From Candidatus Saccharimonadota bacterium (GTDB lineage Bacteria > Patescibacteriota > Saccharimonadia > Saccharimonadales > UBA10212): 53,234 nucleotides of DNA. The translations under genes were made by a program, and so were the position numbers. Below the pieces are notes generated by a model. That model searched no databases. It saw only the letters and a program-made list of their open reading frames with translations, and was not told the origin of the DNA. Shown piece by piece: positions 6,422 through 46,006 of this stretch. How positions within the stretch are numbered: the first letter of the stretch is position 1; the number at the start of each line of letters is the position of its first letter. The stretch covers positions 1 through 53,234 of the forward strand of contig JACPKG010000016.1 in NCBI GenBank assembly GCA_016187175.1, in the 5' to 3' direction.

Positions 6422-6439
6422 TCCAAAAATACCTATTTG

Positions 6440-6460
6440 CTACAGGGTCGTACCCTATAG
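6440..6460. repeat. palindromic unit CTACAGGGTCGTACCCTATAG (AGGGT-CGT-ACCCT core), intergenic copy
   Basis: Same core as the copies inside lepA (26831-26870) and ruvC (45585-45603). Confidence 0.6.
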
Positions 6461-6522
6461 TAAAGAAAATACAAGAGGGTAATTAGGTTTTTGTGCTAAG
6501 ATAAATATATTAACAAATAAAC

Positions 6523-23718: not shown

Positions 23719-23757
23719 AGGGGTACATTAGTAACCTAAGGAGAGGGAAATTCACAA

Positions 23758-23955
23758 ATGGCTTATAAGCATACAAACAGTAAAGGTGTTACATACTACT
23801 TGAACTCTAAGCAAGTCACACTTCGAGGTGGTAAAACTCAAACTATCTATTATTTTTCCAAGGACGAGCGCAGAGATACTGGAACGGATCTGCCATCTGA
23901 CCGCGCAGTCAACGAAAACCCCCGCAATGGTTTTCTTACGCTAAAGCGTAAATAA
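23758..23955 (+). CDS. small basic protein (65 aa)
   Basis: Strong SD, own promoter and own terminator. MAYKHTNSKGVTYYLNSKQVTLRGGKTQTIYYFSKDE. No family named with confidence. Confidence 0.6.
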   Translation: MAYKHTNSKGVTYYLNSKQVTLRGGKTQTIYYFSKDERRDTGTDLPSDRAVNENPRNGFLTLKRK

Positions 23956-23976
23956 TCCGGACAAAGTACACGTTAA

Positions 23977-24005
23977 GAACATCCGCCAGAGGCGGATGTT
24001 CTTTT
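23977..24005 (+). terminator. rho-independent terminator
   Basis: GAACATCCGCC-aga-GGCGGATGTTC followed by TTTT. Confidence 0.8.
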
Positions 24006-24042
24006 ATAGGTTTCTCTCCTCTTAAAACGGGAGTCCCTGGTT

Positions 24043-24172
24043 TATAATTTAGCCAGGATGAATCCCGTTAGACCTCAGCCTGCAATTTCCAAACCCAATT
24101 GGCGTGGGAGTTGTTTTAAACTTCAATCGTTTACTTTTGATCGTCAGCCAAGGTTGAGGTTCTAACGGGATG
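24043..24172 (+). promoter_or_regulatory. leader module copy B upstream of murJ
   Basis: TATAAT at 24043-24048. 24062-24080 (ATCCCGTTAGACCTCAGCC) pairs with 24152-24171 (GGTTGAGGTTCTAACGGGAT, one G-U and one bulge). The uORF stop at 24163-24165 lies 4 nt before ATG 24170. Confidence 0.6.
24058..24165 (+). CDS. leader peptide MNPVRPQPAISKPNWRGSCFKLQSFTFDRQPRLRF
   Basis: 35 codons, parallel to 12595-12702. Confidence 0.5.
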   Translation: MNPVRPQPAISKPNWRGSCFKLQSFTFDRQPRLRF

Positions 24173-25753
24173 AATCGATGGCTTAACCGCGCCAACCAAC
24201 GAATATCTCTTACCGGTGCCGCGGTACTGCTGGTGGTGGCTGCTTTGGTCGGCCAGATGCTGGGTTTTTTACGCACCCAGATCATTAATGGTAACTTTAA
24301 CAGCCCCGGCCATATCACAACTGATGCCTACTTTGCCGCTTTTAAAATTCCTGACTTCTTTTTTTATACCATTGCTGCTGGTGCGTTGGGCGTGGCCTTT
24401 ATGCCGTTTTTGGCTGATAAGCTGGCCGCCGGTGATAAAAAATCCGTTTGGCATTTAACCTCGGGCTTACTTAATCTGCTAGGCCTTTTGATGGTGGGTG
24501 TTGCCATTATCTTGCTTATTTTTACTGAACCCCTGCTAAAAATAGTGGTCGGTAATAACCTGAGTCCAGACCAGATGCACGATGCGGTGACAATCATGCG
24601 AATTGTGGCTCTAAACCCCTTGATCTTCACTATTTCCGGAATTCTTACCAGTTTGCAGCAAACTTTTGGCCGTTTCTTTTTCTTCGCCCTAGCGCCAATT
24701 CTTTATAACGGCTGCATTATTGCCAGCGTCTACATTTTTAAGGACAGTCTAGGTCTGGTTGGCTTGGGTATAGGCGCGCTGGCTGGCGCAGTGCTGCAAC
24801 TGCTGTTTGTCCTGTTGGGACTGGTTGGACTAAACTTCCGCTATATCCCTACTTTTCACTGGCGCAGTCCAGACTTTAGACGTATCTTAAAGCAGCTGCC
24901 GCCGCGTTCAATTGACCAGGGCATTGACTCTATCAACTCGATTGTTGAAACTAACCGCGCCAGCACTCTGGGCCGGGGATTTATTACCTTTTACGAAAAC
25001 GCTTATACTTTGCACCTCGTGCCGATTATGTTAATAGGAACTACTATAGCCACGGCTGCCTTTCCGCGCCTAAACGAACGTTTGGCCCAAGGCCGCCCCG
25101 ACTTATTTAGGCGTGACTTTTTGATGGTGCTACGGGCGATGATCTGGATAATTGCGCCGATAGCTGTAATTTCTTTCTTTGGTCGGGCCTACTTTGCCCG
25201 TTTGATATACAAGAATATAGCGCCGGAAATCGCTATTATCCTTGGCTTTTTGGTAGGGGCAATTGTTTTTAGAACACTTTACGCTATTATTTCCCGCTAT
25301 TTTTATGCCCAAAAAGACACTAAGACGCCGCTGTTTGTCTCCTTGTTCGTGATAGCCCTTAATATATTTCTGGCCTTTCAGCTGGTTAAAATCTACGGCG
25401 TGACCGGCCTGGCGCTGGCGCAGTCAATCGTTGCGGCTGTCGAAGTCTTTATTTTGCTTTTGATTATGGTTTGGCGTGATAAGTTGGTCATCACTGTTGA
25501 TTTTTGGAGCGGTCTTATGCGTACGCTTTCGGTCACCGGTTTTACCATTATTACTACTTACACGCTGGTATCGTTAATTCCGCTGGAGGCTACTGACCGT
25601 GGTTTTATAACATTAAGTTCCAAACTCCTGGCTATTATTTTGCCAACATTTATCGTTCACCTGTCCGTTTCATCGCTGTTTGGTTTAGAGGAAGTCCAGC
25701 CAGTTACCAAAAAGTTGAAACAACTTGCCCTCAAACCCATCAAAATCCAGTAG
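24170..25753 (+). CDS. murJ: lipid II flippase MurJ/MviN
   Basis: 527 aa, about 14 TM helices, MOP-superfamily pattern (LGFLRTQIINGNF...DAYFAAFKIPDFFF). Confidence 0.85.
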   Translation: MNRWLNRANQRISLTGAAVLLVVAALVGQMLGFLRTQIINGNFNSPGHITTDAYFAAFKIPDFFFYTIAAGALGVAFMPFLADKLAAGDKKSVWHLTSGLLNLLGLLMVGVAIILLIFTEPLLKIVVGNNLSPDQMHDAVTIMRIVALNPLIFTISGILTSLQQTFGRFFFFALAPILYNGCIIASVYIFKDSLGLVGLGIGALAGAVLQLLFVLLGLVGLNFRYIPTFHWRSPDFRRILKQLPPRSIDQGIDSINSIVETNRASTLGRGFITFYENAYTLHLVPIMLIGTTIATAAFPRLNERLAQGRPDLFRRDFLMVLRAMIWIIAPIAVISFFGRAYFARLIYKNIAPEIAIILGFLVGAIVFRTLYAIISRYFYAQKDTKTPLFVSLFVIALNIFLAFQLVKIYGVTGLALAQSIVAAVEVFILLLIMVWRDKLVITVDFWSGLMRTLSVTGFTIITTYTLVSLIPLEATDRGFITLSSKLLAIILPTFIVHLSVSSLFGLEEVQPVTKKLKQLALKPIKIQ

Positions 25754-25839
25754 GTGTCCAGTATGGGGTATAAGGTATCAGGTATAATTTTTATACATCA
25801 TACTTAATACCAAATACGTTGTACCTGTTGCGCCTCTGT

Positions 25840-25845
25840 TATAAT
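25840..25845 (+). promoter_or_regulatory. extended -10 box (TGTTATAAT) of lepA
   Basis: The TATAAT ends 9 nt before ATG 25855, so the lepA mRNA would be leaderless or nearly so. Confidence 0.45.
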
Positions 25846-25854
25846 CTGGAGGAT

Positions 25855-27843
25855 ATGGATCAGAGGCTCATTCGGAACTTTTGTATTATTGCGCACATTG
25901 ATCATGGTAAGAGCACGCTGGCTGACCGGTTGCTGGAATTAACCGGTACCGTAGAAAAACGCAACATGAAGGCCCAGATCCTGGACAAAATGGAACTGGA
26001 GCAGGAACGGGGCATCACCATTAAGCTTGCTCCGGTCCGCATGAAATACCGGCCAGCCGTTAACCATTCACCATTAACTGTTCACCATGCATTAACCATT
26101 GGCCATGATCCATTAACCGAAGAAAACGGTAAACGGATAACAGATAACGCATGGAAAACGGAAAACGGTAAAGGGAAAACGGATCAAGTTGAGTATGAAC
26201 TCAACTTGATTGATACTCCCGGTCATGTGGACTTCAGTTACGAGGTCAGCCGCAGCCTGGAAGCCGTCGAAGGTGCGATTTTAGTGGTCGACGCCAGCCA
26301 GGGTGTGCAGGCCCAGACTTTATCAAATATTTATTTGGCGTTAGCAGCTAACCTCAAAATTATTCCGGTGCTGAACAAAATTGATTTGCCGGCCGCAAAC
26401 GTGGAACGGGTTAGTGACGAAGTTATAAAATTACTAGGCTGCCAAAAGGAGGACATTTTACTAATCAGCGCCAAAACCGGTGAGGGGGTGGACCAGGTTT
26501 TGGGACGAGTCGTTGCTGATGTGCCACCGCCATCGGGCAAGGCCGAGGCGCCGACCCGGGCGCTGATTTTTGATAGCTACTATGACGATCACAGAGGAGT
26601 TATTTTGTATGTCAGGCTGGTTGACGGCCGAATTTCCAAGCAGGATTTAATCAAAGTGATGGCTACTGGTGCTCAAGCTACAGCACTGGACGTCGGTTTT
26701 TTGAGCCCGGAAATGAAACCAGCGACGGCTTTGGCGGCTGGAGAAATCGGCTATGTTGTCACCAATCTCAAATCGGCCCGTGAAGCTAAAGTCGGCGACA
26801 CCGTCACCACAGCCAACGACTATAGCGACTATAGGGTCGTACCCTATGACGGTCATAGGGTACGACCCTTAGAAGGGTATAAAGAGGTGCGTCCGTTTGT
26901 CTATGCCGGTTTTTTCCCAAACAGCAACGAAGACTACCAAACTTTTAAGATCGCGGTCGAGAAGTTGTCTTTAAGTGATTCGTCGCTGCAGTACACGTCG
27001 GAAAATTCACCGGTTTTGGGCTTTGGCCTGCGTCTTGGTTTTTTGGGTTTATTACATATGGATATTGTTCGTGAGAGGCTGCAACGAGAGTATGATCTTG
27101 ACCTAATTATCACCAACCCCTCAACTGATTACGAGGTCAGTCTGACCAACGGCCAATTAGTTGATATAAAATCAGCCGCCGACTTGCCGAGTATTAGTAC
27201 AATATCTGAAATTCGTGAGCCGTGGATAAAGGGCGAGATAGCCTGTCCGGCCGTATTTTTGGGTAGCGTTTTAGAGCTAATCAGTAAATCACGAGGGCTT
27301 CATAAACGAATCGAACATATTTCTACGCATTCGACTCCCAAAAATACGGCCGGATCTGACCAAGGTTTAGTAATTATAGATTTCGAAGCGCCACTTACCA
27401 ACTTGATTACCGATTTTTATGACCAACTTAAAAGCATTACTTCCGGCTACGGTTCGTTTAGTTACGAGCTGGCGGATTACCGGGCCGGCGACCTAGTTAA
27501 AGTTGATTTTTATGTCACCGGCGAAAAGGTTGACGCACTGAGTGTTATTGTGCACAAAACCGAGGCCGAACGCGTAGGCCGCCGGGTCGTAGAAAAACTC
27601 AAGGAAGCCATTCCGCGCCAGCAGTTTAAAGTTAGCCTGCAGGCGGCCATCGGTAGCAAATTTATCGCCCGCGAAGACATATCGGCTTACCGCAAAGATG
27701 TTACCGCCAAACTTTACGGCGGCGACGTTACCCGCCGTAAGAAACTTTTGGCCAAGCAAAAAAAGGGCAAAGAGCGCATGAAGCGTTTTGGAAATGTTGA
27801 TGTCCCTGCCGAAGCTTTCACCGTAATGCTGAAACGTGATTAA
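25855..27843 (+). CDS. lepA: translation elongation factor 4 (LepA) carrying in-frame insertions
   Basis: IRNFCIIAHIDHGKSTLADRL, DTPGHVDF, NKIDLP and the LepA-specific C-terminal domain (GDVTRRKKLLAKQKKGKERMK). Start at MDQRLIRNF. Confidence 0.9.
   Translation: MDQRLIRNFCIIAHIDHGKSTLADRLLELTGTVEKRNMKAQILDKMELEQERGITIKLAPVRMKYRPAVNHSPLTVHHALTIGHDPLTEENGKRITDNAWKTENGKGKTDQVEYELNLIDTPGHVDFSYEVSRSLEAVEGAILVVDASQGVQAQTLSNIYLALAANLKIIPVLNKIDLPAANVERVSDEVIKLLGCQKEDILLISAKTGEGVDQVLGRVVADVPPPSGKAEAPTRALIFDSYYDDHRGVILYVRLVDGRISKQDLIKVMATGAQATALDVGFLSPEMKPATALAAGEIGYVVTNLKSAREAKVGDTVTTANDYSDYRVVPYDGHRVRPLEGYKEVRPFVYAGFFPNSNEDYQTFKIAVEKLSLSDSSLQYTSENSPVLGFGLRLGFLGLLHMDIVRERLQREYDLDLIITNPSTDYEVSLTNGQLVDIKSAADLPSISTISEIREPWIKGEIACPAVFLGSVLELISKSRGLHKRIEHISTHSTPKNTAGSDQGLVIIDFEAPLTNLITDFYDQLKSITSGYGSFSYELADYRAGDLVKVDFYVTGEKVDALSVIVHKTEAERVGRRVVEKLKEAIPRQQFKVSLQAAIGSKFIAREDISAYRKDVTAKLYGGDVTRRKKLLAKQKKGKERMKRFGNVDVPAEAFTVMLKRD
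26056..26187. repeat. about 130-nt quasi-palindromic low-complexity insertion, in frame in the LepA G domain
   Basis: The 5' half is CCATTAAC-like repeats and the 3' half is GAAAACGG(T)AAA-like repeats. The halves are roughly complementary (CCATGC/GCATGG, CCGTTAACC/GGAAAACGG). Encodes AVNHSPLTVHHALTIGHDPLTEENGKRITDNAWKTENGKGKTDQ between switch I and DTPGH. Confidence 0.6.
26831..26870. repeat. 40-nt near-perfect palindrome (two AGGGT-NNN-ACCCT units), in frame in lepA
   Basis: ATAGGGTCGTACCCTATGAC-g-GTCATAGGGTACGACCCTT; 19 of 20 positions complementary. Encodes YRVVPYDGHRVRP. Confidence 0.7.
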
Positions 27844-27851
27844 ATACATCC

Positions 27852-28115
27852 ATGAAAGCTCCTGTTGATCCGCGAAAAGTTAAAGAAATTGCTGACCAAA
27901 AGGTCGTTAGCCGATTATCGCCAGTCCGCGATAGCGCCTTTAACCGTTTTCCTCTGTTATTTACGCTTTTAGGAGCCTTTGGAGTAGTGGCAACCCTTTA
28001 CGGCTTTGAGCGCTTAATAGATAAAAGCGAACTTTTGTCTGACAGCCCTTTTATTTTGCTAGGTACAGGCATCTTAACACTCATTTTGACCGGCTCGCTT
28101 TACAAAAAGTTGTAG
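27852..28115 (+). CDS. small membrane protein (two TM helices)
   Basis: 87 aa ORF 8 nt after the lepA stop. Two hydrophobic helices. Confidence 0.5.
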   Translation: MKAPVDPRKVKEIADQKVVSRLSPVRDSAFNRFPLLFTLLGAFGVVATLYGFERLIDKSELLSDSPFILLGTGILTLILTGSLYKKL

Positions 28116-28185
28116 TGTTATCGTGTGATAATCTGTTAGGCATGACCGAGAGTTTAATACTCGCACAAAGTGGGTCGAGCAACTA

Positions 28186-28923
28186 ATGAAACTAAACTTT
28201 TACGATGACTTCAAGAAAGTGCTGTTAGACTACAAGATATCGGAGCGAGCCAGGCAAGCACTTGCAGGCTTGCCGCTGGTCTTGATGGTTGCACCCACCT
28301 CCACTGGGCGCAACACCATGATTCGCGAACTGCTAAAAACTGGTAAATATTACTTTGTTGTTTCTGATACTACTCGCCCACCACAAATTCGCGACGGCAA
28401 AATGGAAGAGCACGGTGTCGAGTATTTTTTTCGAAGTGAGGAGGAAGTTCTGAATGACCTAAAGCGGGGTGAGTTTTTAGAGGCGGCGATCATTCATGAA
28501 CAACAAGTCTCAGGAATTAGCATCCGCGAGTTGGAAAAAGCCAAAAAGTATAAAAAAGTGGCAGCCACAGATATAGAAGTAATTGGCACGGACAATATAA
28601 TACTTGCTAAACCGGATGCGGTAGCTGTATTTTTGGTGCCCCCAAGCTTTGAAGAGTGGCAAAAAAGACTCAATAGCCGGGGGCAAATGAGTCCGCCCGA
28701 AATGAACAACCGCTTGGTTAGCGCAGCAAAAGAGCTTAAAGCCGCTCTTACACGTGACTACTACCATTTCGTAGTAGCTGATGATTTAGCACGCACTGTG
28801 CCGCTGGTGGATAAAATTGCTCACGGCAGTAACGACCAAGCAGAACAGCAAAGGGGCCAAGCACTAATTAAAGAACTATCTAAAGAACTTCAGCAGAAAT
28901 TGGAACCCGGGCTTGCAAATTAA
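28186..28923 (+). CDS. guanylate kinase-like protein with a degenerate P-loop
   Basis: SDTTRPPQIRDGKMEEHGVEYFF matches the GMP-binding region of guanylate kinases, but the Walker A position reads APTSTGRNT (Arg in place of the Lys). Confidence 0.65.
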   Translation: MKLNFYDDFKKVLLDYKISERARQALAGLPLVLMVAPTSTGRNTMIRELLKTGKYYFVVSDTTRPPQIRDGKMEEHGVEYFFRSEEEVLNDLKRGEFLEAAIIHEQQVSGISIRELEKAKKYKKVAATDIEVIGTDNIILAKPDAVAVFLVPPSFEEWQKRLNSRGQMSPPEMNNRLVSAAKELKAALTRDYYHFVVADDLARTVPLVDKIAHGSNDQAEQQRGQALIKELSKELQQKLEPGLAN

Positions 28924-28951
28924 GAGAAGTAGTCTTATAAGATATTGATAT

Positions 28952-29191
28952 ATGACCAGATACGCAGTCAGCCGCGAGAGGCGCTCCGACCTGTTGAATG
29001 AACATAAACGGGCCGATTTGCCTAGCCGCGCTGCAGTAAGACTTGTACTAGAAAGAGTTAGAGACTGGTGGAATACAAGCGTCCCGGAATCTCGGGCCCA
29101 GTTAGTGGCAGCTACAAGCGGGCGGCTGGCGCTTGCTGGCGAAGTAGAACCAGACGAAAACTATCCACCGTCTTTATATAGCCTTTCCTAG
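28952..29191 (+). CDS. doubtful hypothetical ORF (79 aa)
   Basis: Track ORF only. Arg-rich, no motif, no clear SD. Confidence 0.3.
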   Translation: MTRYAVSRERRSDLLNEHKRADLPSRAAVRLVLERVRDWWNTSVPESRAQLVAATSGRLALAGEVEPDENYPPSLYSLS

Positions 29192-29215
29192 CAAGCCAGC
29201 CGGGCGGTAACATAA

Positions 29216-29279
29216 TTAGCACTCTTGACTTAGATCTGCCAATTTTTGTAAACTAGCACTCAGTACATATGAGTGCTAA
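29216..29279 (+). promoter_or_regulatory. heat-shock promoter region with a CIRCE operator (HrcA binding site)
   Basis: Perfect CIRCE-type inverted repeat CTAGCACTC-N9-GAGTGCTAA at 29253-29279. An extra TTAGCACTC half-site at 29216-29224 abuts a TTGACT -35-like hexamer (29225-29230). Confidence 0.8.
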
Positions 29280-29322
29280 TAAGGGAAAAAATAACCCGAG
29301 TGTCGAAACTATGGAGTGCTAG

Positions 29323-30033
29323 ATGACCGAAAGACAAGGTAAATTACTTCAAGCTATAGTCGAGCAATATGCCGAGGTAGCCAGTCCGGTGGGCAGCAGC
29401 CTACTGGCCAAGGTGTTCGATGTTTCCAGTGCCACCATCCGGGCCGAAATGGCCGATCTGGAACGCAGTGGCTACATCATGCAGCCGCACACTAGCGCTG
29501 GCCGTATTCCAACCGACAGGGGCTATCGTTACTACGTCAACCAGCTGGCCCAGCTAGGAGAGAAAGCAAAACCACGTGCCGAGCGCGCCGAACAGGCGTT
29601 GGCAGCCAGGGTAGCAGGTGGTGGATTACCGGAACGGACTATCCGCAACGCTGTAGACACACTGGTTGAACTGACCCATAATTTGGGACTGGCGACGATT
29701 GGTGAACAGCTTTATATAAGCGGCCTGTCCAATCTGTTTGGCCAGCCGGAATTCATACACCCGGGGCAGGTCCAGGAGGTTGCGAGGCTTCTGGACAATC
29801 TAGAACCGTGGCTATATGAAGCTGCGCCCAACCAACCGTTAAGCGTTTATATCGGCCGGGAGAACCCCATTGGTAGCACCGCTGGCTGCAGTCTAATTAT
29901 CAGCCGTTTCCGCAGTCCGTTTTCCGACCGTAGCTACATCGGTACGCTGGGACCAACCCGCCAAAGTTATCGTGAGGTTATGGCCCTGGTTGGCCGTGCC
30001 GGCCAAGCTTTGGAGGAGACAATTTATGTCTAG
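29323..30033 (+). CDS. hrcA: heat-inducible transcription repressor HrcA (short form)
   Basis: MTERQGKLLQAIVEQYAEVASPVGSSLLAK...SSATIRAEMADLERSGYIMQPHTSAGRIPTDRGYRYYV is the canonical HrcA wHTH. 236 aa, shorter than the roughly 340 aa typical length. Confidence 0.85.
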   Translation: MTERQGKLLQAIVEQYAEVASPVGSSLLAKVFDVSSATIRAEMADLERSGYIMQPHTSAGRIPTDRGYRYYVNQLAQLGEKAKPRAERAEQALAARVAGGGLPERTIRNAVDTLVELTHNLGLATIGEQLYISGLSNLFGQPEFIHPGQVQEVARLLDNLEPWLYEAAPNQPLSVYIGRENPIGSTAGCSLIISRFRSPFSDRSYIGTLGPTRQSYREVMALVGRAGQALEETIYV

Positions 30034-30036
30034 TAT

Positions 30037-30064
30037 TTCGTATTTGGCTTTTCGTATTTGGCTT
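30037..30064 (+). repeat. perfect tandem duplication of 14 nt (TTCGTATTTGGCTT x2)
   Basis: Read directly, in the hrcA-grpE spacer. Confidence 0.7.
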
Positions 30065-30081
30065 TTTGAGGGACAACCCCG

Positions 30082-30624
30082 ATGAAGCAGAAGCAAAATA
30101 CCAGCAGCCAACAGCCAATAGCGTTCGAGGATTTGCGAAAACAAATCCTTGAACTAACAGAGGCTTTGCAGCGTGAGCGAGCCGATGCTGTAAACCTAAG
30201 ACGCCGGGCGGACGAAGAGCGCTCCCAAGCAGCCAACTTTCATAAAGCCATGGTGGTGCGCGATATTCTGCCAATTGTCGACAACTGCGAAAGATTACTA
30301 GAGCACATTTCCGCCGATTCCAAGGTCCGGCCTTGGAAACAGGGGGTGGAGCAGATTGTGAAGCAGTGCCAAAAAACGCTGGATGATCTTGGGGTTGAAC
30401 GTATTAAGACGGTTGGCCAACATTTTAACCCCCACTTGCACGAAGCTGTCAGTATGGACCTGTCCTCCGACTTGTCCGCCGAAGATTCAGCGGAGGCGGA
30501 AGCCTCGGCGAAGGAGGGGGATGGCGAGCACGAGATTATAACCGAGGAGCTTCAAGCAGGCTACAAAATCGGTAGCGAAGTTGTTCGCCCCGCCATGGTC
30601 AAAGTAAGGAAGGAGAAAGAGTAA
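30082..30624 (+). CDS. grpE: nucleotide exchange factor GrpE
   Basis: Coiled-coil N-terminus and GrpE core (FNPHLHEAV ... GYKIGSEVVRPAMVKV), with an acidic insertion. Confidence 0.9.
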   Translation: MKQKQNTSSQQPIAFEDLRKQILELTEALQRERADAVNLRRRADEERSQAANFHKAMVVRDILPIVDNCERLLEHISADSKVRPWKQGVEQIVKQCQKTLDDLGVERIKTVGQHFNPHLHEAVSMDLSSDLSAEDSAEAEASAKEGDGEHEIITEELQAGYKIGSEVVRPAMVKVRKEKE

Positions 30625-30995
30625 TGGAAAGAAATAAATTACAAGAAAGTTTACAACGCGGGCGAGAAAGTCTAAGTAGACTAGCTAGATGGATCATCGA
30701 TCAAGTTGCTATCTATCCCTCTGATTTTAATGCCCGTCTAGCAGCATCGCCCGTAGCGACCGAAATAGCGGCGGCGCGCCGAGGGGAAGGGACTAGGAGC
30801 GAAGACGAAATTCTGAATGGTCTTCCCCCACAGGTACAAAAATACGCGTTAATGACAGCAGATAGGACCAGACCGTTAGATCAGACTGAAGCAGGTATAT
30901 CTGCCAGAAGGCTAGAAGAAAGATCTAGGCGTTTAGCAGAAGCACAGCACCGTCTGCGCGGACCCCAGGGTCTTCGCTTAGATCGGGGAGAGTAA
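30624..30995 (+). CDS. hypothetical protein inserted between grpE and dnaK
   Basis: 123 aa. TAATG overlap with grpE, and ends 1 nt before dnaK. Arg/Glu-rich, no family recognised. Confidence 0.5.
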
Positions 30996-30996
30996 A

Positions 30997-32952
30997 ATGG
31001 GGAAAATTATAGGCATAGATTTAGGAACGACTAACTCGGCGATGGCCGTGATGCAGGCCGGTAAGCCGGAAATTATTGCTAATAGTGAAGGCAACCGTAC
31101 TACGCCAAGTGTAGTGGCGATTAATAAAAATAGCGAACGTTTAGTTGGCCAAGTGGCTAACCGCCAGCGGGTAACTAACCCAACCAACACTATTTTTGGT
31201 GTCAAGCGTCTAATTGGGCGCAAATTCACCGATCCGGAAGTCCAAAAAGACATCGAGTTGATGCCTTATAAAATCGTTAAGGCTGGTACTGGCGTGAAAG
31301 TAGAAATGGCCGGCAAAGAATATAGTCCCGAAGAAGTCAGCGCTATGATCTTATCCAAGCTTAAAGCTGACGCTGAAAAATTCCTTGGCGAACCGGTAAC
31401 CGAAGCTGTCATTACCACACCGGCCTACTTTGATGATAGCCAGCGTCAGGCTACCAAGGATGCCGGTAAAATTGCCGGGCTAGAAGTCAAGCGCATCATT
31501 AACGAACCAACGGCTGCCGCCTTAGCATACGGCTTGGATAAAGGTAAAGAAGAAAAAATCGCCGTTTACGACCTCGGCGGCGGCACTTTCGATATTTCCA
31601 TTCTGCAGCTAGGCGACGGCGTCTTTGAAGTTTTAAGCACGCACGGTGACACGCACTTGGGTGGTGAGGACTTTGACCTGCGAATCGTTAACCATTTTGT
31701 TGACCAGTTTAAAAAAGAGTCCGGCATTGATGTTAAAGATGACAAAGCCGCCATGCAGCGTCTAAAGGAAGAGGCCGAAAAAGCTAAAAAAGAACTGTCT
31801 ACCGCAGAAGTAGCTGATATCAATTTGCCGTTCTTGACCGCTGATGCGGAGGGTCCGAAGCACTTCGAGTATAAACTTACTCGCGCCAAACTGGTGGAGC
31901 TGGTTCAGGATTTGATCGATAAAACCGAGGAGCCGGTTAAGAAGGCTATTAAAGACGCCAAATTAACACCTGCTGACATCAATGAAATTGTTTTAGTGGG
32001 CGGTATGACCCGCATGCCGGCCGTAGTCGAAAAAGTTAAATCAGTTTTTGGCAAAGAGCCGATGCAGGGTGTCAATCCGGATGAAGTCGTAGCAGTAGGC
32101 GCGGCTATTCAGGCCGGCGTGCTGCAAGGCGACGTTAAAGACGTGCTGTTGCTGGATGTTACTCCACTATCGCTGGGTATTGAAACACTTGGCGGCGTAA
32201 CTACTAAACTGATCGAACGTAACACCACTATTCCAACCAGCAAAAACGAGGTCTTTAGCACGGCAGCCGATAACCAAAACAGCGTAGAAATCCACGTGCT
32301 GCAAGGCGAAAGAGAAATGGCCGAAGGCAACAAAAGCCTGGGCCGCTTTGTGTTGGATGGTATTCCACCGGCGCCACGCGGCGTGCCACAAATTGAAGTC
32401 ACTTTTAATATTGACGCCAATGGCATTTTGAACGTCACTGCCAAAGATAAAGGTACGGGCAAAGAGCAAAGCATTACCATCAAAGAAAGCGGCAGCTTAA
32501 GCAAAGAAGAGGTGGAAAAAGCCGCCAAAGACGCTGAGGCCCACGCTGAGGAAGATAAAAAGAAACGCGAAACTATCGAAGTTAAGAACCAGCTAGACAA
32601 CGCTGTTTACCAAGCAGAGAAAATGAAGACCGACTATAAGGATAAGTTGAGCGAGGAAGATGCCAAGACTTTGCAAGAAGCTATTGACGAAGCCAAGACT
32701 CATCTGGAAGCGACTGATAAGGATGAGCTGGAAAAAGCCGCCAAAGACTTAAGCGAAAAGATCATGCCAATCGGAGCTAAAATGTATGAGCAAGCGAACA
32801 AAGAGAGCGAAGCGAAACCGTCCGACGCGTCCCCCGAAGGATCGGCGAAGGGGGGAGCTTCAGCGAAGGATGGTGAGTCAAGCAAAGGTAAGAAATCCGA
32901 TAAGGACGAGCCAGTCGAAGGCGAAGTTGTTGATGATAAAGGAGAAAAGTAA
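30997..32952 (+). CDS. dnaK: molecular chaperone DnaK (Hsp70)
   Basis: [17 protein letters not shown] and [10 protein letters not shown] motifs. 651 aa. Confidence 0.97.
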
Positions 32953-33245
32953 TGACGCGAACCGTCTATCTCTTCGAGTCAGTAGGTGGCGCAGACCCAC
33001 ACAATCATGCTGATCTAGACAAGACTATGAAACTAGTCGCGACCCAATATGGCTATTCGTCGCCTGAGGATTTTGCTAACGGTAATTATAAAGCATATGC
33101 TCGCTGTCTCTTCGCGGCGCTCAACCAACCCCCGAGAGCTTTAGATCACGAACTTCAAACTACTGTTGATAGAACAGCTTTTTCGTGGGTCAACCTACTA
33201 CGGCAGGTATACGGTGTTCTTGACTCAAGGCGAAAACCTAACTAG
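32952..33245 (+). CDS. hypothetical protein (97 aa)
   Basis: TAATG overlap with the dnaK stop. No family recognised. Confidence 0.4.
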   Translation: MTRTVYLFESVGGADPHNHADLDKTMKLVATQYGYSSPEDFANGNYKAYARCLFAALNQPPRALDHELQTTVDRTAFSWVNLLRQVYGVLDSRRKPN

Positions 33246-33249
33246 GTTA

Positions 33250-33582
33250 ATGGTGGATAGTGATAACTTTTGTCAGTTGTGGCTGACGTGTGCGGATAAA
33301 GCCGGGGCCAATAAGATCGCCAAAACTCTGCTGGACAAGAGATTAGTCGCTTGCGTCCGGCAAATTCCGGTGGCTTCCGATTTTCATTGGCGTGGTAAAA
33401 TTCAACACGCCAATGAGATAATGCTATTGATGGAAAGCCGCGGGGATTTATTCGATGAGATTGAGCGTGAAGTTGCTAAACTCCATAACTACGATACCTT
33501 TGTACTTGAAGCCACACCCGTCACTAAAATTTCTAAGAAAGCCGGACAATGGTTAAAAGGTGAACTAAAAAATGTCAGATGA
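33250..33582 (+). CDS. cutA: divalent-cation tolerance protein CutA
   Basis: LWLTCADKAGANKIAKTLLDKRLVACV...HWRGKI...E..LLMESR...HNYDTFVLEATPV fits the CutA1 fold family. Start moved to ATG 33250. Confidence 0.8.
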   Translation: MVDSDNFCQLWLTCADKAGANKIAKTLLDKRLVACVRQIPVASDFHWRGKIQHANEIMLLMESRGDLFDEIEREVAKLHNYDTFVLEATPVTKISKKAGQWLKGELKNVR

Positions 33583-34090
33583 AAGTCGGGATAGATTCAC
33601 TAGCATTGTTCAAGGTCAATTGCCAAGCACCAAAGATCGTTTGAGGCAAGCACTTAATGACCCGAAAGTTACTGGTTATTTTAATAACCATCCGGAACGA
33701 GACGGATATGCAGATAGGCAAGGCTATTTTAAGCTTCTTGACTATTTGGCGTATGAACACGGGTTATTTCCGGAAGAGTCTACTGAAGTTATAAGTAGGC
33801 TCTCCAGTAGATCCAGGCGTCAAGTAGCTAGCCGCAACTATGACCAAGAATTTTTGGGCATAATCAACTACCTTGAAGAATACGAACTGAGGATTCTACA
33901 AGCCACGGATGATAGAAGAATTAGAAAAGCTGCTCGTTTTTTAATACTTGGAGAGGGTGATGAGGAGGATCTGGACAGTGAAGAAATACTATCTGGGGTT
34001 GCCAAAACGTACAGGATTAATTTAGTTGACGCCAGAGAAGCTTTAGACATTCAAGAGAAAAGATTAATTGAAGAGCTACCTGATGTTTAG
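33572..34090 (+). CDS. hypothetical acidic protein (172 aa)
   Basis: Overlaps the cutA end by 11 nt. No family recognised. Confidence 0.5.
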   Translation: MSDESRDRFTSIVQGQLPSTKDRLRQALNDPKVTGYFNNHPERDGYADRQGYFKLLDYLAYEHGLFPEESTEVISRLSSRSRRQVASRNYDQEFLGIINYLEEYELRILQATDDRRIRKAARFLILGEGDEEDLDSEEILSGVAKTYRINLVDAREALDIQEKRLIEELPDV

Positions 34091-34161
34091 ACACAACTGC
34101 TCTAGAGAATGGTCTTTGGGTAGTGCGTATAGGATCGGATATCAAACATTAGTCTGTAGTC

Positions 34162-35286
34162 ATGGCTAAGAAAGATTATTATGAGGTTTTGGGGGTTGGT
34201 AAAAATGCCAGCGCTGACGAGATCAAGAAGGCCTTTCGGCGGCTGGCGGTCGAACATCATCCGGATCGTGGCGGTGCCGAAGAAAGTTTTAAAGAAATTA
34301 ACGAAGCCTACGAAGTTCTTAAAGACTCCGAAAAACGCAAGCGCTACGACCAATTTGGCCACGCCGGTGTTGGTAGCAGCGCGGCTAGCGAGGGGGCGCC
34401 TTTTGGCGGCTTCGGCGGTCCTGGTCAAGAATTTCACTTTGATTTTGGCGATCTAGGCCTAGGCGATATTTTTGGCAGTTTTTTTGGCGGTACTACGACT
34501 ACCGGCAGCCGCCGCCAAAAGCGAGGCAACGACGTCGAAACCAATATAGATATCAGTTTTGAACAAGCTGTTTTCGGCACAGAGGTAGATTTGCGCCTTA
34601 AGCTTGAAGACAACTGCGAACATTGCCGGGGGACAACGGTTGAGCCAGGCTATGAGCTAAAACTTTGCGACCAATGCAAAGGCGCCGGCCAAATTACCAA
34701 TGTTATGCGGACGGTTTTTGGCAATATCCAGCAGGCAGTAACCTGTCCGCAGTGCAAGGGTAAAGGTAAAACTCCTGAAAAGATCTGCTCAGTTTGTCAT
34801 GGTAAGGGAACCCAGCGTAAACCCCAAGCCATTAAACTTAGAGTCCCGGCTGGTATTGATGATGGTGCTACCATCCGCTTGCGCGAGCATGGCGAGGCGA
34901 CTACTGACGGACCGAAAGGCGACCTCTATGTCAATATTCGTGTTCGCCCGCACAAAAAATTCACCCGCGAGGGCGACCTGATACTTTCCAGTGAGCATAT
35001 CGGAATGGTTGATGCCGCCCTAGGCACCCAAATTGACGTTGAAACAGTCGACGGCCCGGTCCGCATGAAAGTCCCAGCCGGCACGAACTCCGGCAGTGAT
35101 TTTAAACTGTCCGGCCACGGTGTACCGCACTTAAAAGACTCTGGCCCCTTCGACTCCGCCCAGGGTAAACGCGGCGCTCATATCGTGACAATTTTAGTCG
35201 ATACCCCCACCAAACTATCAGCCAGCCAAAAAGAGTTGCTAGAAGATCTCAAAAACAACGAAGGCAAACACGGTTTATTTGGTTAA
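34162..35286 (+). CDS. dnaJ: molecular chaperone DnaJ (type I Hsp40)
   Basis: J domain (DYYEVLGV...HHPDRGG), G/F region and four CxxCxGxG zinc-finger repeats. Confidence 0.95.
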   Translation: MAKKDYYEVLGVGKNASADEIKKAFRRLAVEHHPDRGGAEESFKEINEAYEVLKDSEKRKRYDQFGHAGVGSSAASEGAPFGGFGGPGQEFHFDFGDLGLGDIFGSFFGGTTTTGSRRQKRGNDVETNIDISFEQAVFGTEVDLRLKLEDNCEHCRGTTVEPGYELKLCDQCKGAGQITNVMRTVFGNIQQAVTCPQCKGKGKTPEKICSVCHGKGTQRKPQAIKLRVPAGIDDGATIRLREHGEATTDGPKGDLYVNIRVRPHKKFTREGDLILSSEHIGMVDAALGTQIDVETVDGPVRMKVPAGTNSGSDFKLSGHGVPHLKDSGPFDSAQGKRGAHIVTILVDTPTKLSASQKELLEDLKNNEGKHGLFG

Positions 35287-35287
35287 T

Positions 35288-35896: not shown

Positions 35897-36035
35897 GTAC
35901 TTACTATAACATAAATGTTTACTATATGTCAAAAACGGCTGTGTTTACTTGCCCCGCACCAAGTCTTGACCCATTCGACAGGCTCAGGATCAAGATTTGG
36001 CGTGAGGTTGACTCAAGGGTTACAATAAAATTTAG

Positions 36036-36227
36036 ATGATTCCCAAAAATACAAACCAATCTGGCTTTACCCAGCACTTAGCCTCCGAGATTATCCGCCG
36101 CAAGCGGATATATTCGAAGAACGCAGAGCTAAGTGCTGGGTTTATCCCAATGCTTATCATGATCGTGATAGTATTAGCTATTTTTATCTGGTTAGTCTAT
36201 TCCCGCGTCTCCCACTCCGGTAGCTAG
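36036..36227 (+). CDS. possible small tail-anchored membrane protein (63 aa), overlapping a long hairpin
   Basis: C-terminal TM helix (FIPMLIMIVIVLAIFIWLVY). The N-terminal half is encoded by a 14-bp perfect inverted repeat, so an RNA function is an alternative. Confidence 0.35.
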   Translation: MIPKNTNQSGFTQHLASEIIRRKRIYSKNAELSAGFIPMLIMIVIVLAIFIWLVYSRVSHSGS

Positions 36228-36258
36228 CGTTCGCATTGCCTAACCACAAGAGCTATGT

Positions 36259-36264
36259 TATAAT
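36259..36264 (+). promoter_or_regulatory. extended -10 box (TGTTATAAT)
   Basis: Ends 11 nt before ATG 36276, with no SD between them. Confidence 0.45.
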
Positions 36265-36275
36265 ATATAGTAATT

Positions 36276-44870: not shown

Positions 44871-45518
44871 ATGCGCTTGTTTTTATCATCACAAGACTTT
44901 GGCAACTATCCGGAAGTGGCGGCTAAGTTGGCTGGGAAGAATAAAAAAGCAGCTTATATTAAGAATGCTCAAGATGACTTACCGCCAAAAGAAAGAAATT
45001 TTAGTACGCCGGAAAAGAAAAAAATGTTTGAAGCAGCAGGTTTTGAATTTGAGGAGCTGGACCTACGTGATTATTTTGGGGAGCCGGATAAATTACTTAA
45101 CAAGTTAGGTAATTTTGGGTCTTTTTGGTCTTCGGGTGGTAATACTTTTATTTTGCGTCGGGCGATGAAAGCCAGTGGCCTGGATGAGGTCTTTCAAAAA
45201 TTACTGAAAGAAGACAAGATAATGTACGGCGGTTGGAGCGCCGGGGCGTGCGTAGCAGCTCCTTCGCTGCACGGCATCGAATATGGCGACAGACCTCAGC
45301 CAAATGTAGTACCTAAGAATTACCCAATCAAAGATACGATTTGGGAGGGCCTTAATTTAGTACCTTTCATGGTTGTCCCGCATTATAAGTCAGACTGGTT
45401 TGGTGCCGAGGCCGATAGGTCACTAACATACTTTAAAAGACACAAAATACCGTGTAGGCCGTTACAGGACGGCCAGGTTATCGTCGTGAGCGACAGGAAA
45501 GTTGAGTTTTTAAAGTGA
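44871..45518 (+). CDS. peptidase S51 (dipeptidase E-like)
   Basis: SSGGNTFILRRAM and GWSAGACVAAP (nucleophile Ser) motifs. Confidence 0.75.
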   Translation: MRLFLSSQDFGNYPEVAAKLAGKNKKAAYIKNAQDDLPPKERNFSTPEKKKMFEAAGFEFEELDLRDYFGEPDKLLNKLGNFGSFWSSGGNTFILRRAMKASGLDEVFQKLLKEDKIMYGGWSAGACVAAPSLHGIEYGDRPQPNVVPKNYPIKDTIWEGLNLVPFMVVPHYKSDWFGAEADRSLTYFKRHKIPCRPLQDGQVIVVSDRKVEFLK

Positions 45519-46006
45519 GAATTATAGGCATTGATCCGGGGACGGGGATTTTGGGTTTTGGCGTCATCGACGTCGATAACTCCTCTAAGGGTACGACCCT
45601 TAGGTATAAGTTGGTTGACGGTGGCGTTATCCGGACGCCGACCAAAGAGGGTGATGCCGATCAGCTAGGTATTATTTTTGAAGAGCTAACCGACATAATC
45701 GCTTCCTGCAAGCCTTCGGAAATGGCTGTCGAAAAATTGTTTTTTGCTCAGAACGTCACTACTGCGATGACCGTAGCCCAAGCCAGAGGAGTGGCAATTG
45801 TGGCCGGCAAACAAGCCGGGCTAAAAATTGCCGAATATACACCGCTGCAAATTAAGCAGGCCTTAACTGGTTACGGCCGAGCCGACAAGAAACAGATGCA
45901 GGAAATGGTCCGGGTGTTGTTGGGACTTAAAGAAATTCCCAAGCCCGACGACTGTGCGGATGCCTTGGCCTGTGCCATAACCCACGCCATGACATCCAAG
46001 ATATAG
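45515..46006 (+). CDS. ruvC: crossover junction endodeoxyribonuclease RuvC
   Basis: (V)RIIGIDPGTGILGFGVI, EKLFFAQNVTTAM and DDCADALACAITHA catalytic motifs. GTGA overlap with the upstream gene. Confidence 0.9.
   Translation: MRIIGIDPGTGILGFGVIDVDNSSKGTTLRYKLVDGGVIRTPTKEGDADQLGIIFEELTDIIASCKPSEMAVEKLFFAQNVTTAMTVAQARGVAIVAGKQAGLKIAEYTPLQIKQALTGYGRADKKQMQEMVRVLLGLKEIPKPDDCADALACAITHAMTSKI
45585..45603. repeat. palindromic unit CTAAGGGTACGACCCTTAG, in frame in ruvC
   Basis: Same AGGGT-NNN-ACCCT core as 6440-6460 and 26831-26870. Encodes SKGTTLR in a loop that is shorter in E. coli RuvC as I recall it. Confidence 0.65.

What the first reader, a model, noticed from the sequence alone, without database searches (positions are those of the whole stretch)
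26831..26870. 40-nt near-perfect palindrome inserted in frame in lepA
ATAGGGTCGTACCCTATGAC-g-GTCATAGGGTACGACCCTT is 19/20 self-complementary. It is made of two AGGGT-NNN-ACCCT units. It adds about 13 residues (YRVVPYDGHRVRP) to a segment that is shorter in E. coli LepA, by my recollection (GDTLTLARNPAEKALPGF). The same unit occurs in ruvC (45585-45603) and intergenically (6440-6460). In-frame colonisation of conserved genes by palindromic repeats is known for Rickettsia palindromic elements, but I know of no description for this kind of genome.
Basis: partly seen in the sequence, partly recalled or inferred. Interest (0 to 1): 0.65.

Follow-up and report, generated by a model that had tools for sequence, protein, structure and literature searches.

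The report
REP hairpin doublet inside lepA
The 40-base palindrome in lepA is real: it is two head-to-head copies of a small hairpin repeat of the REP kind, which in related Saccharibacteria flanks a REP-type tyrosine transposase gene and often sits in frame inside conserved housekeeping genes.

Summary
Positions 26833-26869 form two 18-nt arms that are 100% complementary, separated by one base. The 13-mer AGGGTNNNACCCT occurs 4 times in the window against 0.02 expected. Four independent metagenome assemblies carry the palindrome.

The window is a Saccharibacteria (CPR) contig. The unit belongs to a dispersed hairpin family with consensus TGCTATAGGGT-CGT-ACCCTATAGCA. Its stems show compensated changes. 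In related genomes pairs of these hairpins flank a 202-206 aa Y1/HUH transposase. That protein's only NCBIfam match is the REP-associated tyrosine transposase (RAYT) model, and its best structural match is the E. coli RAYT-REP complex 4er8. The outer stem co-varies with the RAYT lineage.

The 24-nt element is 8 codons long and open in 2 of 3 frames. It lies in frame in tsaD, mutY, ksgA and bipA of relatives, and in lepA and ruvC here.

In lepA, the closest relative (81% identity) has one unit, a more distant one has none, and the window has two. The window gains 10-11 residues just after domain II, in a loop that carries other inserts in other lineages.

Intragenic REPs are already described in other phyla (Di Nocera 2013), so this is a new member of a known kind. 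No RAYT gene lies in the window. Mobilisation by RAYT is inferred, not shown.

The parts
26829..26872 (.). REP doublet (REPIN-like palindrome) in frame in lepA. The left unit is 26829-26849 (loop CGT), the centre base is 26851, and the right unit is 26852-26872 (loop ACG). The perfect arms are 26833-26850 and 26852-26869.
   Evidence: present in four independent assemblies.
26817..26834 (+). 9-nt tandem duplication CGACTATAG x2 abutting and overlapping the left unit. It is part of the 30 nt that L001 lacks.
   Evidence: Read directly; alignment.
25855..27843 (+). lepA (EF4) host gene, 662 aa counted from the Met at 25855 and intact. The insert occupies residues about 325-336, just after the EF-Tu domain 2 match, which ends at residue 318.
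6438..6462 (.). Single REP hairpin TGCTAcAGGGTCGTACCCTATAGtA, matching the family consensus at 23 of 25 positions. It is intergenic, 16 nt downstream of the stop of ORF 5828-6421.
45585..45603 (.). Single short-stem REP unit CTAAGGGTACGACCCTTAG (8-bp stem, loop ACG) in frame in ruvC, encoding SKGTTLR. The window's RuvC is 6 residues longer here than the RuvC of L160.
45515..46006 (+). ruvC host gene (163 aa).

Best explanation
The palindrome is a head-to-head doublet of a REP-type hairpin element. The family consensus is TGCTATAGGGT-CGT-ACCCTATAGCA. The window's lineage also carries a short-stem variant, CTAAGGGT-ACG-ACCCTTAG.

The family belongs to a REP/RAYT system of Saccharibacteria. In related genomes a single-copy Y1 (HUH) tyrosine transposase gene is flanked by the same hairpins, and further copies are scattered through the genome.

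The core element is 24 nt, or 8 codons. It has no stop codon in two of its three frames in either orientation, reading AIG(YD/SY)PIA or CYRV(V/R)PYS. Copies that land in tolerant surface loops of proteins therefore keep the reading frame and persist.

In lepA, one unit was acquired before the window's lineage split from that of L001. A second, inverted unit was added later in the window's lineage. Together they now form an 18-bp perfect hairpin or cruciform and add 10-11 residues to the linker after domain II of EF4.

What is shown:
- the repeat family and the compensated changes in its stem;
- its physical association with RAYT genes in relatives;
- the in-frame copies in several conserved genes;
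- the none / one / two series of units at the lepA site across relatives.

What is inferred:
- that the RAYT is the enzyme that spreads the hairpins, by analogy with E. coli TnpA-REP and IS200/IS605 single-strand transposition;
- that the window's own genome encodes such an enzyme;
- how the second lepA unit arose, whether by transposase-mediated insertion next to the first unit or by hairpin-primed inverted duplication, followed by homogenisation of the arms.
For: Repeat family:
- The motif occurs 4 times against 0.02 expected.
- Nineteen metagenome loci hold the 18-mer. From these loci plus the window, L001, L072 and L096, 32 distinct copies with the GGGT(CGT/ACG)ACCC core give a 25-nt consensus.
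- On 39 distinct hairpins, 88% of cells pair and 7 of 11 pairs show double changes. None of 500 shuffles reaches this, and the slid controls score far lower.

RAYT link:
- Hairpin pairs 646-662 bp apart flank 202-206 aa ORFs in L124, L127, L129 and L132.
- These ORFs match Pfam Y1_Tnp at E 3e-10.
- Their only NCBIfam match is the REP-associated tyrosine transposase model.
- The HUH histidines and the Tyr are invariant in 30 sequences.
- The AlphaFold model (pLDDT 89) has 4er8, the E. coli RAYT bound to a REP hairpin, as its best PDB match (E 1.7e-6, TM 0.64).
- More distant RAYTs (L162, L163) are flanked by hairpins with the same GGGTCGTACCC core but different, self-complementary outer stems.
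- The RAYT sits between the same two genes in three contigs, as a vertically inherited single-copy gene would.

In-frame copies in relatives:
- tsaD, mutY (two sites), ksgA, bipA and a ycaQ-like gene carry copies in frame.
- The closest BipA relatives are labelled Saccharibacteria.

lepA series:
- The window has two units, L001 has one (CTACGGGTACGACCCTTAG) and L002/L003 have none.
- Other lineages carry unrelated 16- and 53-aa inserts in the same loop.

The palindrome is present in four independent assemblies.
Against: - No RAYT homologue is found in the 53-kb window (tblastn). The rest of this genome was not available, so the link between this organism's copies and a transposase rests on relatives.
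- The RAYT score against NCBIfam NF047646 is 44 bits, below the curated cut-off of 80. Sequence searches of PDB found nothing.
- The window's three intragenic units deviate from the consensus in their outer stems.
- Both arms of the doublet share a non-consensus flank (TATGAC/GTCATA). This requires homogenisation or inverted duplication, not two independent insertions.
- In bipA and at mutY site 2 the hairpin replaces native sequence with zero or +1 residue net change. Plain insertion does not explain this.
- No transposition or cleavage has been observed.
Confidence: 0.8

Rival explanations
1. The repeat family is real, but the lepA doublet was made without any transposase. A single pre-existing unit, as in L001, was copied in inverted orientation by intrastrand template switching at a hairpin during replication. 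This is the same process that makes and perfects quasi-palindromes.
For: - The arms are 18/18 perfect and include the non-consensus bases TATGAC/GTCATA.
- The window holds six perfect inverted repeats with arms of at least 14 nt. Four lie inside lepA and comEC. One (27246/27337) keeps its pairing in L001 through compensated synonymous changes.
- Between sequencing runs, the only difference in 13 kb is the centre base G/C, which is what an inversion of the palindrome would give.
- At one orthologous mutY site the hairpin loop is inverted between two relatives.
Against: - The left unit's outer stem (CTATAGGGT) is of the canonical family type. The right unit's outer stem (ACCCTTAG) is the short variant, so the left unit is not a plain mirror copy of the whole right unit.
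- The 30 nt gained also include a 9-nt tandem duplication.
- Inverted doublets of the same hairpin are the normal arrangement beside RAYT genes (L132, L162, L163).
- This rival explains only the second unit. It does not explain the dispersal of the family.
Confidence: 0.3
2. The hairpins are not mobile DNA. They are a functional motif, such as a protein-binding site, a DNA-uptake signal in these naturally competent, comEC-bearing bacteria, or an RNA stability or termination signal. On this reading they spread by mutation plus biased recombination or gene conversion, and the Y1 protein merely binds them.
For: - In bipA the perfect hairpin replaces native sequence in register with no length change. 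In the 21 closest BipA orthologues read in this region (84-95% identity), the 20 other than the hairpin-bearing protein keep the native form, of type LMIGYQPLG.
- MutY site 2 changes by only +1 residue.
- Copies tend to sit where the native sequence already resembles part of the hairpin (ruvC).
- The intergenic copy lies 16 nt after a stop codon, a typical place for an RNA 3' structure.
Against: - There are no intermediates. The bipA patch is 12/24 identical to the native DNA, against 84% for the gene as a whole, so it arrived in one templated step.
- Clear net insertions exist: lepA +30/33 nt, ruvC +18 nt, tsaD +7 aa, ksgA +6 aa.
- The density, 4 units in 53 kb, is far below that of known uptake sequences (about one per kb, stated from memory).
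- The hairpins flank the Y1 gene on both sides, and their outer stems co-vary with it, as in REP/RAYT systems.
- No run of T follows the hairpins.
Confidence: 0.12
3. The extra LepA peptide is itself the selected feature, a lineage-specific adaptation of EF4, and the nucleotide palindrome is a by-product.
For: - The ORF is intact and the insert is carried in four samples.
- Several Saccharibacteria lineages have inserts in this same loop.
Against: - The same nucleotide unit is read in another frame in ruvC and is non-coding at 6438-6462.
- In relatives it is read in two frames and both orientations, in unrelated proteins.
- The centre polymorphism changes Gly to Arg within the insert.
- The inserts in this loop are unrelated in sequence between lineages.
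Confidence: 0.05

Closest known systems
REP/RAYT systems (REPtrons, REPINs) of Proteobacteria; E. coli TnpA-REP (PDB 4er8)
   Same: - A short GC-cored hairpin repeat with many solo copies.
- Inverted doublets able to fold as one long hairpin.
- A single Y1/HUH transposase gene flanked by its own hairpins.
- Hairpin sequence that co-varies with the transposase lineage.
- A transposase gene held at a conserved chromosomal position.
   Different: - The host is a CPR/Saccharibacteria genome of small size and high coding density.
- The protein is about 205 aa, scores below the NCBIfam cut-off, and is 15% identical to 4er8 over the structural alignment.
- The loop is only 3 nt.
- The terminal tetranucleotide is ATAG in the main variant, and GTAG only in some variants.
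- A large share of the copies seen are inside genes: 3 of 4 units in the window, and at least 7 of the distinct canonical copies in the related loci.
Intragenic GTAG/CGTC REPs described by Di Nocera et al. 2013 (PMC3733652): Opitutus terrae, Thauera, Xanthomonas, Rickettsia conorii RPE-4/-6
   Same: - In-frame REPs inside known genes.
- More than half are dimers.
- Many lie in DNA repair and RNA or translation genes. Here the hosts are ruvC, mutY and a ycaQ-like gene, plus lepA, bipA, ksgA and tsaD.
- The same gene can be hit at the same site in related species.
   Different: - Different phylum and different hairpin sequence.
- Here some copies replace native sequence in register with no net length change.
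- The loop is found inverted at an orthologous site.
- I found neither of these last two points in the parts of that paper I read.
Rickettsia palindromic elements (RPE-1 and relatives)
   Same: Palindromic repeats inserted in frame in conserved genes, tolerated in surface loops.
   Different: - RPEs are about 100-150 bp and encode 30-50 residues (from memory).
- They have no sequence similarity to this hairpin.
- They are not tied to a flanking Y1 transposase gene.
IS200/IS605 family insertion sequences
   Same: - A Y1 HUH transposase with subterminal hairpins.
- About 650 bp between the two hairpins.
- The predicted fold matches IS608 and ISDra2 TnpA.
   Different: - Here the gene is at a fixed syntenic position in three contigs.
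- The hairpins occur alone far from any transposase gene.
- The best structural match is the RAYT, not an IS transposase.

Membership tests
REP/RAYT system (REPtron / REPIN) | Short (20-40 nt) imperfect palindrome able to form a stem-loop. | tested here: met
   25-nt consensus with an 11-bp stem and a 3-nt loop. 88% of cells pair, 7 of 11 pairs show compensated changes, and none of 500 shuffles reaches this.
REP/RAYT system (REPtron / REPIN) | Many dispersed copies within one genome. | tested here: inconclusive
   There are 4 units at 3 sites in the 53-kb window, and six loci from the one metagenome Ga0193742 carry copies.
REP/RAYT system (REPtron / REPIN) | A cognate Y1 transposase gene flanked by the same hairpins. 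| tested here: inconclusive
   Met in related contigs L124, L127, L129, L132, L162 and L163. Not found in the window itself, and the rest of this genome was not seen.
REP/RAYT system (REPtron / REPIN) | The transposase is a RAYT: HUH motif, catalytic Tyr, RAYT-like fold. | tested here: met
   Pfam PF01797 at E 3e-10. The only NCBIfam hit is NF047646, but at 44 bits against a cut-off of 80. H79, H81 and Y139 are invariant. The top Foldseek hit is 4er8 at E 1.7e-6 and TM 0.64.
REP/RAYT system (REPtron / REPIN) | Conserved GTAG (or CGTC) tetranucleotide at one end of the hairpin. | tested here: inconclusive
   The main variant ends in ATAG (CTATAGC). GTAG is present in the compensated variant GCTACC...GGTAGC, in one L163 copy, and as CTAC in the window's copy at 6440.
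REP/RAYT system (REPtron / REPIN) | Inverted doublets that can fold as one long hairpin (REPIN). | tested here: met
   The lepA doublet has an 18-bp perfect stem. Inverted pairs lie 42-60 nt apart beside the RAYT genes of L132, L162 and L163.
REP/RAYT system (REPtron / REPIN) | Copies predominantly extragenic. | tested here: not met
   3 of 4 units in the window, and at least 7 canonical copies in relatives, lie in frame inside conserved genes. Intragenic REPs are, however, a described minority in other species (PMC3733652).
REP/RAYT system (REPtron / REPIN) | The RAYT binds and cleaves its REP as single-stranded DNA, and copies are mobilised. | not testable with these tools
   Needs biochemistry or an evolution experiment.
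Rickettsia palindromic elements (RPE) | Element of about 100-150 bp encoding 30-50 residues, Rickettsia-type consensus. | tested here: not met
   The unit is 19-25 nt and the doublet 40-44 nt, encoding 10-11 residues. RPE sizes are stated from memory.
IS200/IS605 insertion sequence | Transposase and both ends move together as a multi-copy unit. | tested here: not met
   Solo hairpins lie far from any Y1 gene (window; L123, L125, L136, L141). The Y1 gene sits at the same syntenic position, between an HhH-GPD glycosylase gene and a GDSL hydrolase gene, in three contigs.

The most novel reading that the evidence does not exclude
In Saccharibacteria, REP hairpins spread through coding DNA not only by insertion. 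They may also overwrite, in register, native sequence that already resembles them. BipA reads LMIGYQPLG in the native form and LAIGYDPIA in the hairpin-bearing form, with no length change. The hairpins also flip in place, as shown by the loop inversion at an orthologous mutY site and the G/C centre of the lepA doublet. That would point to a templated, similarity-guided exchange reaction, either RAYT strand swapping or hairpin-primed template switching. Such a reaction would let a selfish repeat live inside essential genes of a very compact genome.
Probability: 0.3. Interest if true: 0.75.

Novelty: new member of a known kind. Interest (0 to 1): 0.55.

Why it matters
Saccharibacteria and other CPR bacteria have genomes of about 1 Mb with very little intergenic space. 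They also often carry unexplained insertions in conserved proteins.

This case shows that at least some of those insertions are copies of a REP-type hairpin tied to a RAYT transposase. It therefore extends REP/RAYT biology to this phylum.

It also offers a simple explanation of how a selfish repeat survives where non-coding DNA is scarce. The unit is 8 codons long and open in two frames.

Practical consequences:
- Such hairpins break short-read assemblies. Most RAYT contigs found here are only 1-5 kb.
- They can mislead gene callers. The database's own call for this lepA is 600 aa rather than 662.
- They add lineage-specific peptides to marker proteins used in phylogeny.

The in-register replacements and loop flips, if general, would be a new behaviour for REPs.

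Tried and rejected
- **Exact look-up of the window's LepA.** It found no other contig, so the rest of the genome could not be reached.
- **Genome-collection scan with the 14-mer.** It was useful only for L072, L096 and three other Saccharibacteria loci.
- **Viral contigs with the 15-mer.** There were 18 hits, none with the extended stem consensus. I treat them as chance, so there is no sign of a phage link.
- **Rfam.** Only three tRNAs were found in the window.
- **PDB sequence searches with the RAYT.** Neither a single sequence nor a profile found anything. The fold comparison was needed instead.
- **AlphaFold model of the window's LepA.** It was poor, with mean pLDDT 56. The insert and most of domain III are below 50, so it does not show whether the insert is a surface loop. 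I rely instead on the alignment to solved EF4 sequences and on the Pfam domain 2 boundary.
- **EF4 domain boundaries from a paper.** The text I read did not give them.
- **Search for degenerate copies in the window.** Allowing up to 2 mismatches to the 13-mer found only the same four units.
- **Orthologues of the hairpin-bearing tsaD, ksgA and ycaQ genes.** None were among the held loci. Their net insert sizes therefore rest on distant PDB homologues.
- **Linking a RAYT to this genome by coverage in the four runs.** I considered laying RAYT loci on the runs. I did not try it, because RAYTs of different lineages are only 55-80% identical as proteins, too far for read mapping.
Full report
**1. 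The observation**

Positions 26833-26850 (AGGGTCGTACCCTATGAC) and 26852-26869 (GTCATAGGGTACGACCCT) are perfectly complementary over 18 nt, with one base between them. Folded as one strand, the stretch forms a single long hairpin that extends, with a one-base bulge, to CTA...TAG. The energy is -20.6 kcal/mol as DNA (z = -6.0) and -35.3 kcal/mol as RNA (z = -6.4). No shuffle does as well.

The 13-mer AGGGTNNNACCCT occurs four times in the window against 0.02 expected.
- 6444, intergenic, 16 nt after the stop of ORF 5828-6421;
- 26833 and 26857, in lepA;
- 45588, in ruvC.

A search allowing two mismatches finds no further copies.

Logan contigs of four groundwater metagenome runs span the palindrome with no difference or one difference, so it is not an assembly artefact.

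**2. The host gene and the size of the insert**

The window is a Saccharibacteria (Patescibacteria/CPR) contig. The best LepA hits are labelled Saccharibacteria, Saccharimonadales or Patescibacteria group.

The lepA ORF is intact and has all EF4 domains. Against E. coli and T. thermophilus EF4 there is an 11-residue gap opposite YRVVPYDGHRV, between E. coli E282 and K283. This lies four to eight residues after the end of the Pfam EF-Tu domain 2 match, which ends at residue 318.

An alignment of 37 Saccharibacteria LepAs shows that most have no insert here. Two other groups have unrelated inserts in the same loop:
- 16 aa in P0018 and P0019;
- 53 aa in P0012, P0014 and P0050. Its DNA itself folds as a long imperfect hairpin, with DNA z = -4.7.

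The loop is therefore permissive. The AlphaFold model of the window's LepA was too poor to add anything (mean pLDDT 56).

**3. History at the lepA site**

- L001, the closest relative (81% identity), has one unit at this site: CTACGGGTACGACCCTTAG, read as LRVRPL.
- L002 and L003 (76% identity) have none: KNPSTQPLEGYK.
- The window has two units.

The window is 30 nt longer than L001 and 33 nt longer than L002. The right-hand unit is therefore older than the split from L001, and the left-hand unit is specific to the window's lineage. The extra 30 nt also contain a 9-nt tandem duplication, CGACTATAG x2 at 26817-26834.

**4. What the unit is**

A scan of metagenome contigs with TATAGGGTCGTACCCTAT returned 19 loci. 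From these loci plus the window, L001, L072 and L096, 32 distinct copies that share the GGGT(CGT/ACG)ACCC core give the consensus TGCTATAGGGT-CGT-ACCCTATAGCA. This has an 11-bp stem and a 3-nt loop. The window's intergenic copy matches it at 23 of 25 positions.

Variants keep the pairing. Examples are GCTACCGGGT...ACCCGGTAGC, ATTCACGGGT...ACCCGTGAAT and CACCGGGT...ACCCGGTG. Counted on 39 distinct hairpins:
- 88% of cells pair;
- 7 of 11 pairs show changes on both sides;
- none of 500 shuffles reaches this, and the slid controls score far lower.

The inner four pairs were fixed by the search pattern and say nothing either way.

**5. The transposase**

In L124, L127, L129 and L132, two hairpins 646-662 bp apart enclose a 202-206 aa ORF. 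The evidence on this ORF is as follows.
- It matches Pfam Y1_Tnp, the IS200-like model, at E 3e-10.
- Its only NCBIfam hit is the REP-associated tyrosine transposase model, at 44 bits. That is below the curated cut-off of 80.
- The family has at least 944 members in the protein collection. JGI names some of them 'REP element-mobilizing transposase RayT', and NCBI names one as a Saccharimonadales transposase.
- The two histidines of the HUH motif and the Tyr of SRYIHxNP are invariant in 30 sequences.
- A confident AlphaFold model (pLDDT 89) has the E. coli RAYT bound to a REP hairpin, 4er8, as its best PDB match (E 1.7e-6, TM 0.64). The IS608 and ISDra2 transposases follow.

In three contigs the gene sits between the same HhH-GPD glycosylase gene and GDSL hydrolase gene. 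This suggests a vertically inherited single-copy gene rather than a jumping insertion sequence.

RAYTs that are 56-59% identical are flanked by doublets of hairpins with the same core but other outer stems (L162, L163). L160 has a more divergent hairpin. A hairpin that co-varies with its flanked Y1 gene is the signature of REP/RAYT systems (PMC2817692, PMC3116915 and PMC3733652, listed).

No RAYT homologue lies in the window.

**6. Copies inside genes**

The 24-nt core has no stop codon in two of its three frames, in either orientation.
- GCT ATA GGG TAC GAC CCT ATA GCA reads AIGYDPIA. With the loop inverted it reads AIGSYPIA.
- The +1 frame reads CYRV(V/R)PYS.
- The third frame carries two TAG codons.

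In related contigs the canonical hairpin lies in frame in the following genes:

| Gene | Locus | Peptide |
|---|---|---|
| tsaD | L123 | SAIGYDPIA |
| mutY-like | L130 | LAIGSYPIA |
| mutY-like, two copies | L140 | FAIGYDPIA and FATGSYPVA |
| ksgA | L125 | FPIGYDPIE |
| bipA | L141 | LAIGYDPIA |
| ycaQ-like | L136 | PAIGYDPIA |

The closest BipA relatives are labelled Saccharibacteria, so these contigs belong to that phylum. One MAG labelled Limnocylindria (L072, P0241) is probably mis-binned.

In the window, both lepA units use the second frame (YRVVPY, HRVRPL). The ruvC unit is a short-stem variant, CTAAGGGT-ACG-ACCCTTAG, read as SKGTTLR. RuvC is 6 residues longer here than in L160 and 3 longer than in T. 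thermophilus. The half-site ACCCTTAG recurs in the window's ruvC, the window's lepA and L001's lepA, so it marks a subfamily of this lineage.

**7. Two things that plain insertion does not explain**

(a) Replacement in register.
- BipA of L141 has the same length as its orthologues. In the 21 closest orthologues whose sequence I read in this region (84-95% identity), the 20 other than the hairpin-bearing protein itself keep the native form, of type SLMIGYQPLG.
- At the DNA level there is no gap. Identity is 12/24 inside the hairpin, against 84% for the gene as a whole.
- MutY site 2 changes by +1 residue only.
- In ruvC the native TTAAGGGCAAGG already resembles half of the unit.
- TsaD (+7) and KsgA (+6), like lepA and ruvC, are net insertions.

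(b) Flipping in place.
- At the orthologous mutY site 1, L130 has loop CGT and L140 has loop ACG, while the flanks are 92% identical.
- In the window, the only difference among four runs over 13 kb (23740-36900) is the centre base 26851. It is G in X1 and X2 and C in X3 and X4. This is what an inversion of the palindrome would produce, and it changes Gly to Arg.

These points suggest that templated, hairpin-driven exchange acts on these elements. I cannot tell whether the RAYT or replication template switching is responsible.

**8. Comparison with what is known**

REP/RAYT systems and REPIN doublets are well described. Di Nocera et al. 2013 (PMC3733652) already report REPs inside genes in several species. 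More than half of those are dimers encoding 20-30 residues, and many lie in replication and repair genes. Their list includes R. conorii RPE-4 and RPE-6.

The present case fits that picture, down to the repair genes ruvC and mutY.

I found no paper that links RAYT or REP with Saccharibacteria or CPR. The hits are unrelated, and one search gave nothing relevant.

I therefore rate it a new member of a known kind. The high intragenic share, the in-register replacements and the loop flips are possible new features that need a genome-wide test.

**9. Verdict**

The element is more precisely named a REP-type hairpin doublet of a Saccharibacteria REP/RAYT system. The weakest link is that the transposase was seen only in relatives, not in this 53-kb contig, and that mobilisation is inferred by analogy.

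Noticed in passing
window 27246-27263 and 27337-27354 (inside lepA, domain V region): An 18-nt perfect inverted repeat with arms 73 nt apart. The left arm codes CPAVFLG, and the right arm lies in a lineage-specific insert (TPKNTAGS). In L001 the same two arms are 17-nt perfect but differ from the window at two positions per arm. Those changes are compensated and synonymous. LepAs without the insert (L002, L164, L165) have no such repeat. This is a conserved long-range stem inside a coding region, and it is unexplained.
   Followed up: partly
window 26851: The centre base of the lepA palindrome is G in runs X1 and X2 and C in X3 and X4. It is the only difference among the four runs between 23740 and 36900. 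It is equivalent to an inversion of the palindrome, and it changes Gly to Arg.
   Followed up: partly
window 42267-42303 (inside comEC); also L135 1030-1052: A second palindrome doublet, with 16-nt arms that are 100% complementary and 5 nt apart, built from another hairpin family, TTGCAGGGA-NNN-TCCCTGCAA. It lies in frame (LQGLSLQEGQSLQG). One more copy lies next to a family-1 hairpin in L135. The window's ComEC is about 15 residues longer here than that of L160, but the two proteins are only 35% identical.
   Followed up: partly
window 42046-42061 and 42085-42100 (inside comEC): Another perfect 16-nt inverted repeat, GCTCAAGCCTAAAAAT / ATTTTTAGGCTTGAGC, with arms 23 nt apart, in the same gene.
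   Followed up: no
window 3120-3139 and 3273-3292: A 20-nt perfect inverted repeat, TAAGAGCTAATCCACATCTC, with arms 133 nt apart, between the convergent ORFs 2479-3108 and 3283-5787. It may be a small element with terminal inverted repeats.
   Followed up: no
window 26056-26184 (lepA G domain, residues 68-109): A 42-residue insert between the G2 and G3 motifs, absent from E. coli EF4 and from many Saccharibacteria. It is built of short direct repeats: three copies of about CCATTAACCATTCACCAT and two of GAAAACGGTAAACGG. It varies in length between lineages. A low-depth contig in run X3 skips 25946-26203.
   Followed up: no
L164 10001-11998 (lepA of P0050; also P0012, P0014): A 53-residue insert in the same loop as the window's palindrome. 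Its DNA folds as a long imperfect hairpin (-39 kcal/mol, z = -4.7). This is a different, larger intragenic palindromic element.
   Followed up: partly
L141 8845 (bipA) compared with L166 3001-4830: A perfect 24-nt hairpin replaces native bipA sequence in register with no length change. Identity to the native DNA is 12/24 inside the hairpin, against 84% for the gene as a whole.
   Followed up: yes
L130 3273 compared with L140 415 (mutY-like gene): The same orthologous site carries the hairpin with its loop in opposite orientations, CGT versus ACG. The flanks are 92% identical.
   Followed up: yes
L129 13645-14255: A second Y1/RAYT paralogue (41-47% identical) on the same contig, split across two frames. 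It may be a second REP/RAYT system or a pseudogene.
   Followed up: no
L072 (DATHJH010000035.1) and protein P0241: This contig and its BipA are labelled Candidatus Limnocylindria (Chloroflexota). The contig shares sequence with Ga0193742_1000790, and its BipA is 84-95% identical to Saccharibacteria proteins. It is probably a mis-binned contig.
   Followed up: partly
window 25819-27843: The protein collection's own gene call for this lepA is 600 aa, covering 91% of the 662-aa protein (P0001). The caller therefore chose a start codon inside the conserved G domain.
   Followed up: no
window 46992-48890: A 632-aa AAA_15/AAA_21 ATPase (AbiEii/OLD-like Pfam matches) follows ruvA. In L160 the RAYT gene sits in this neighbourhood, between ruvA and the gene next to ruvC.
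   Followed up: no
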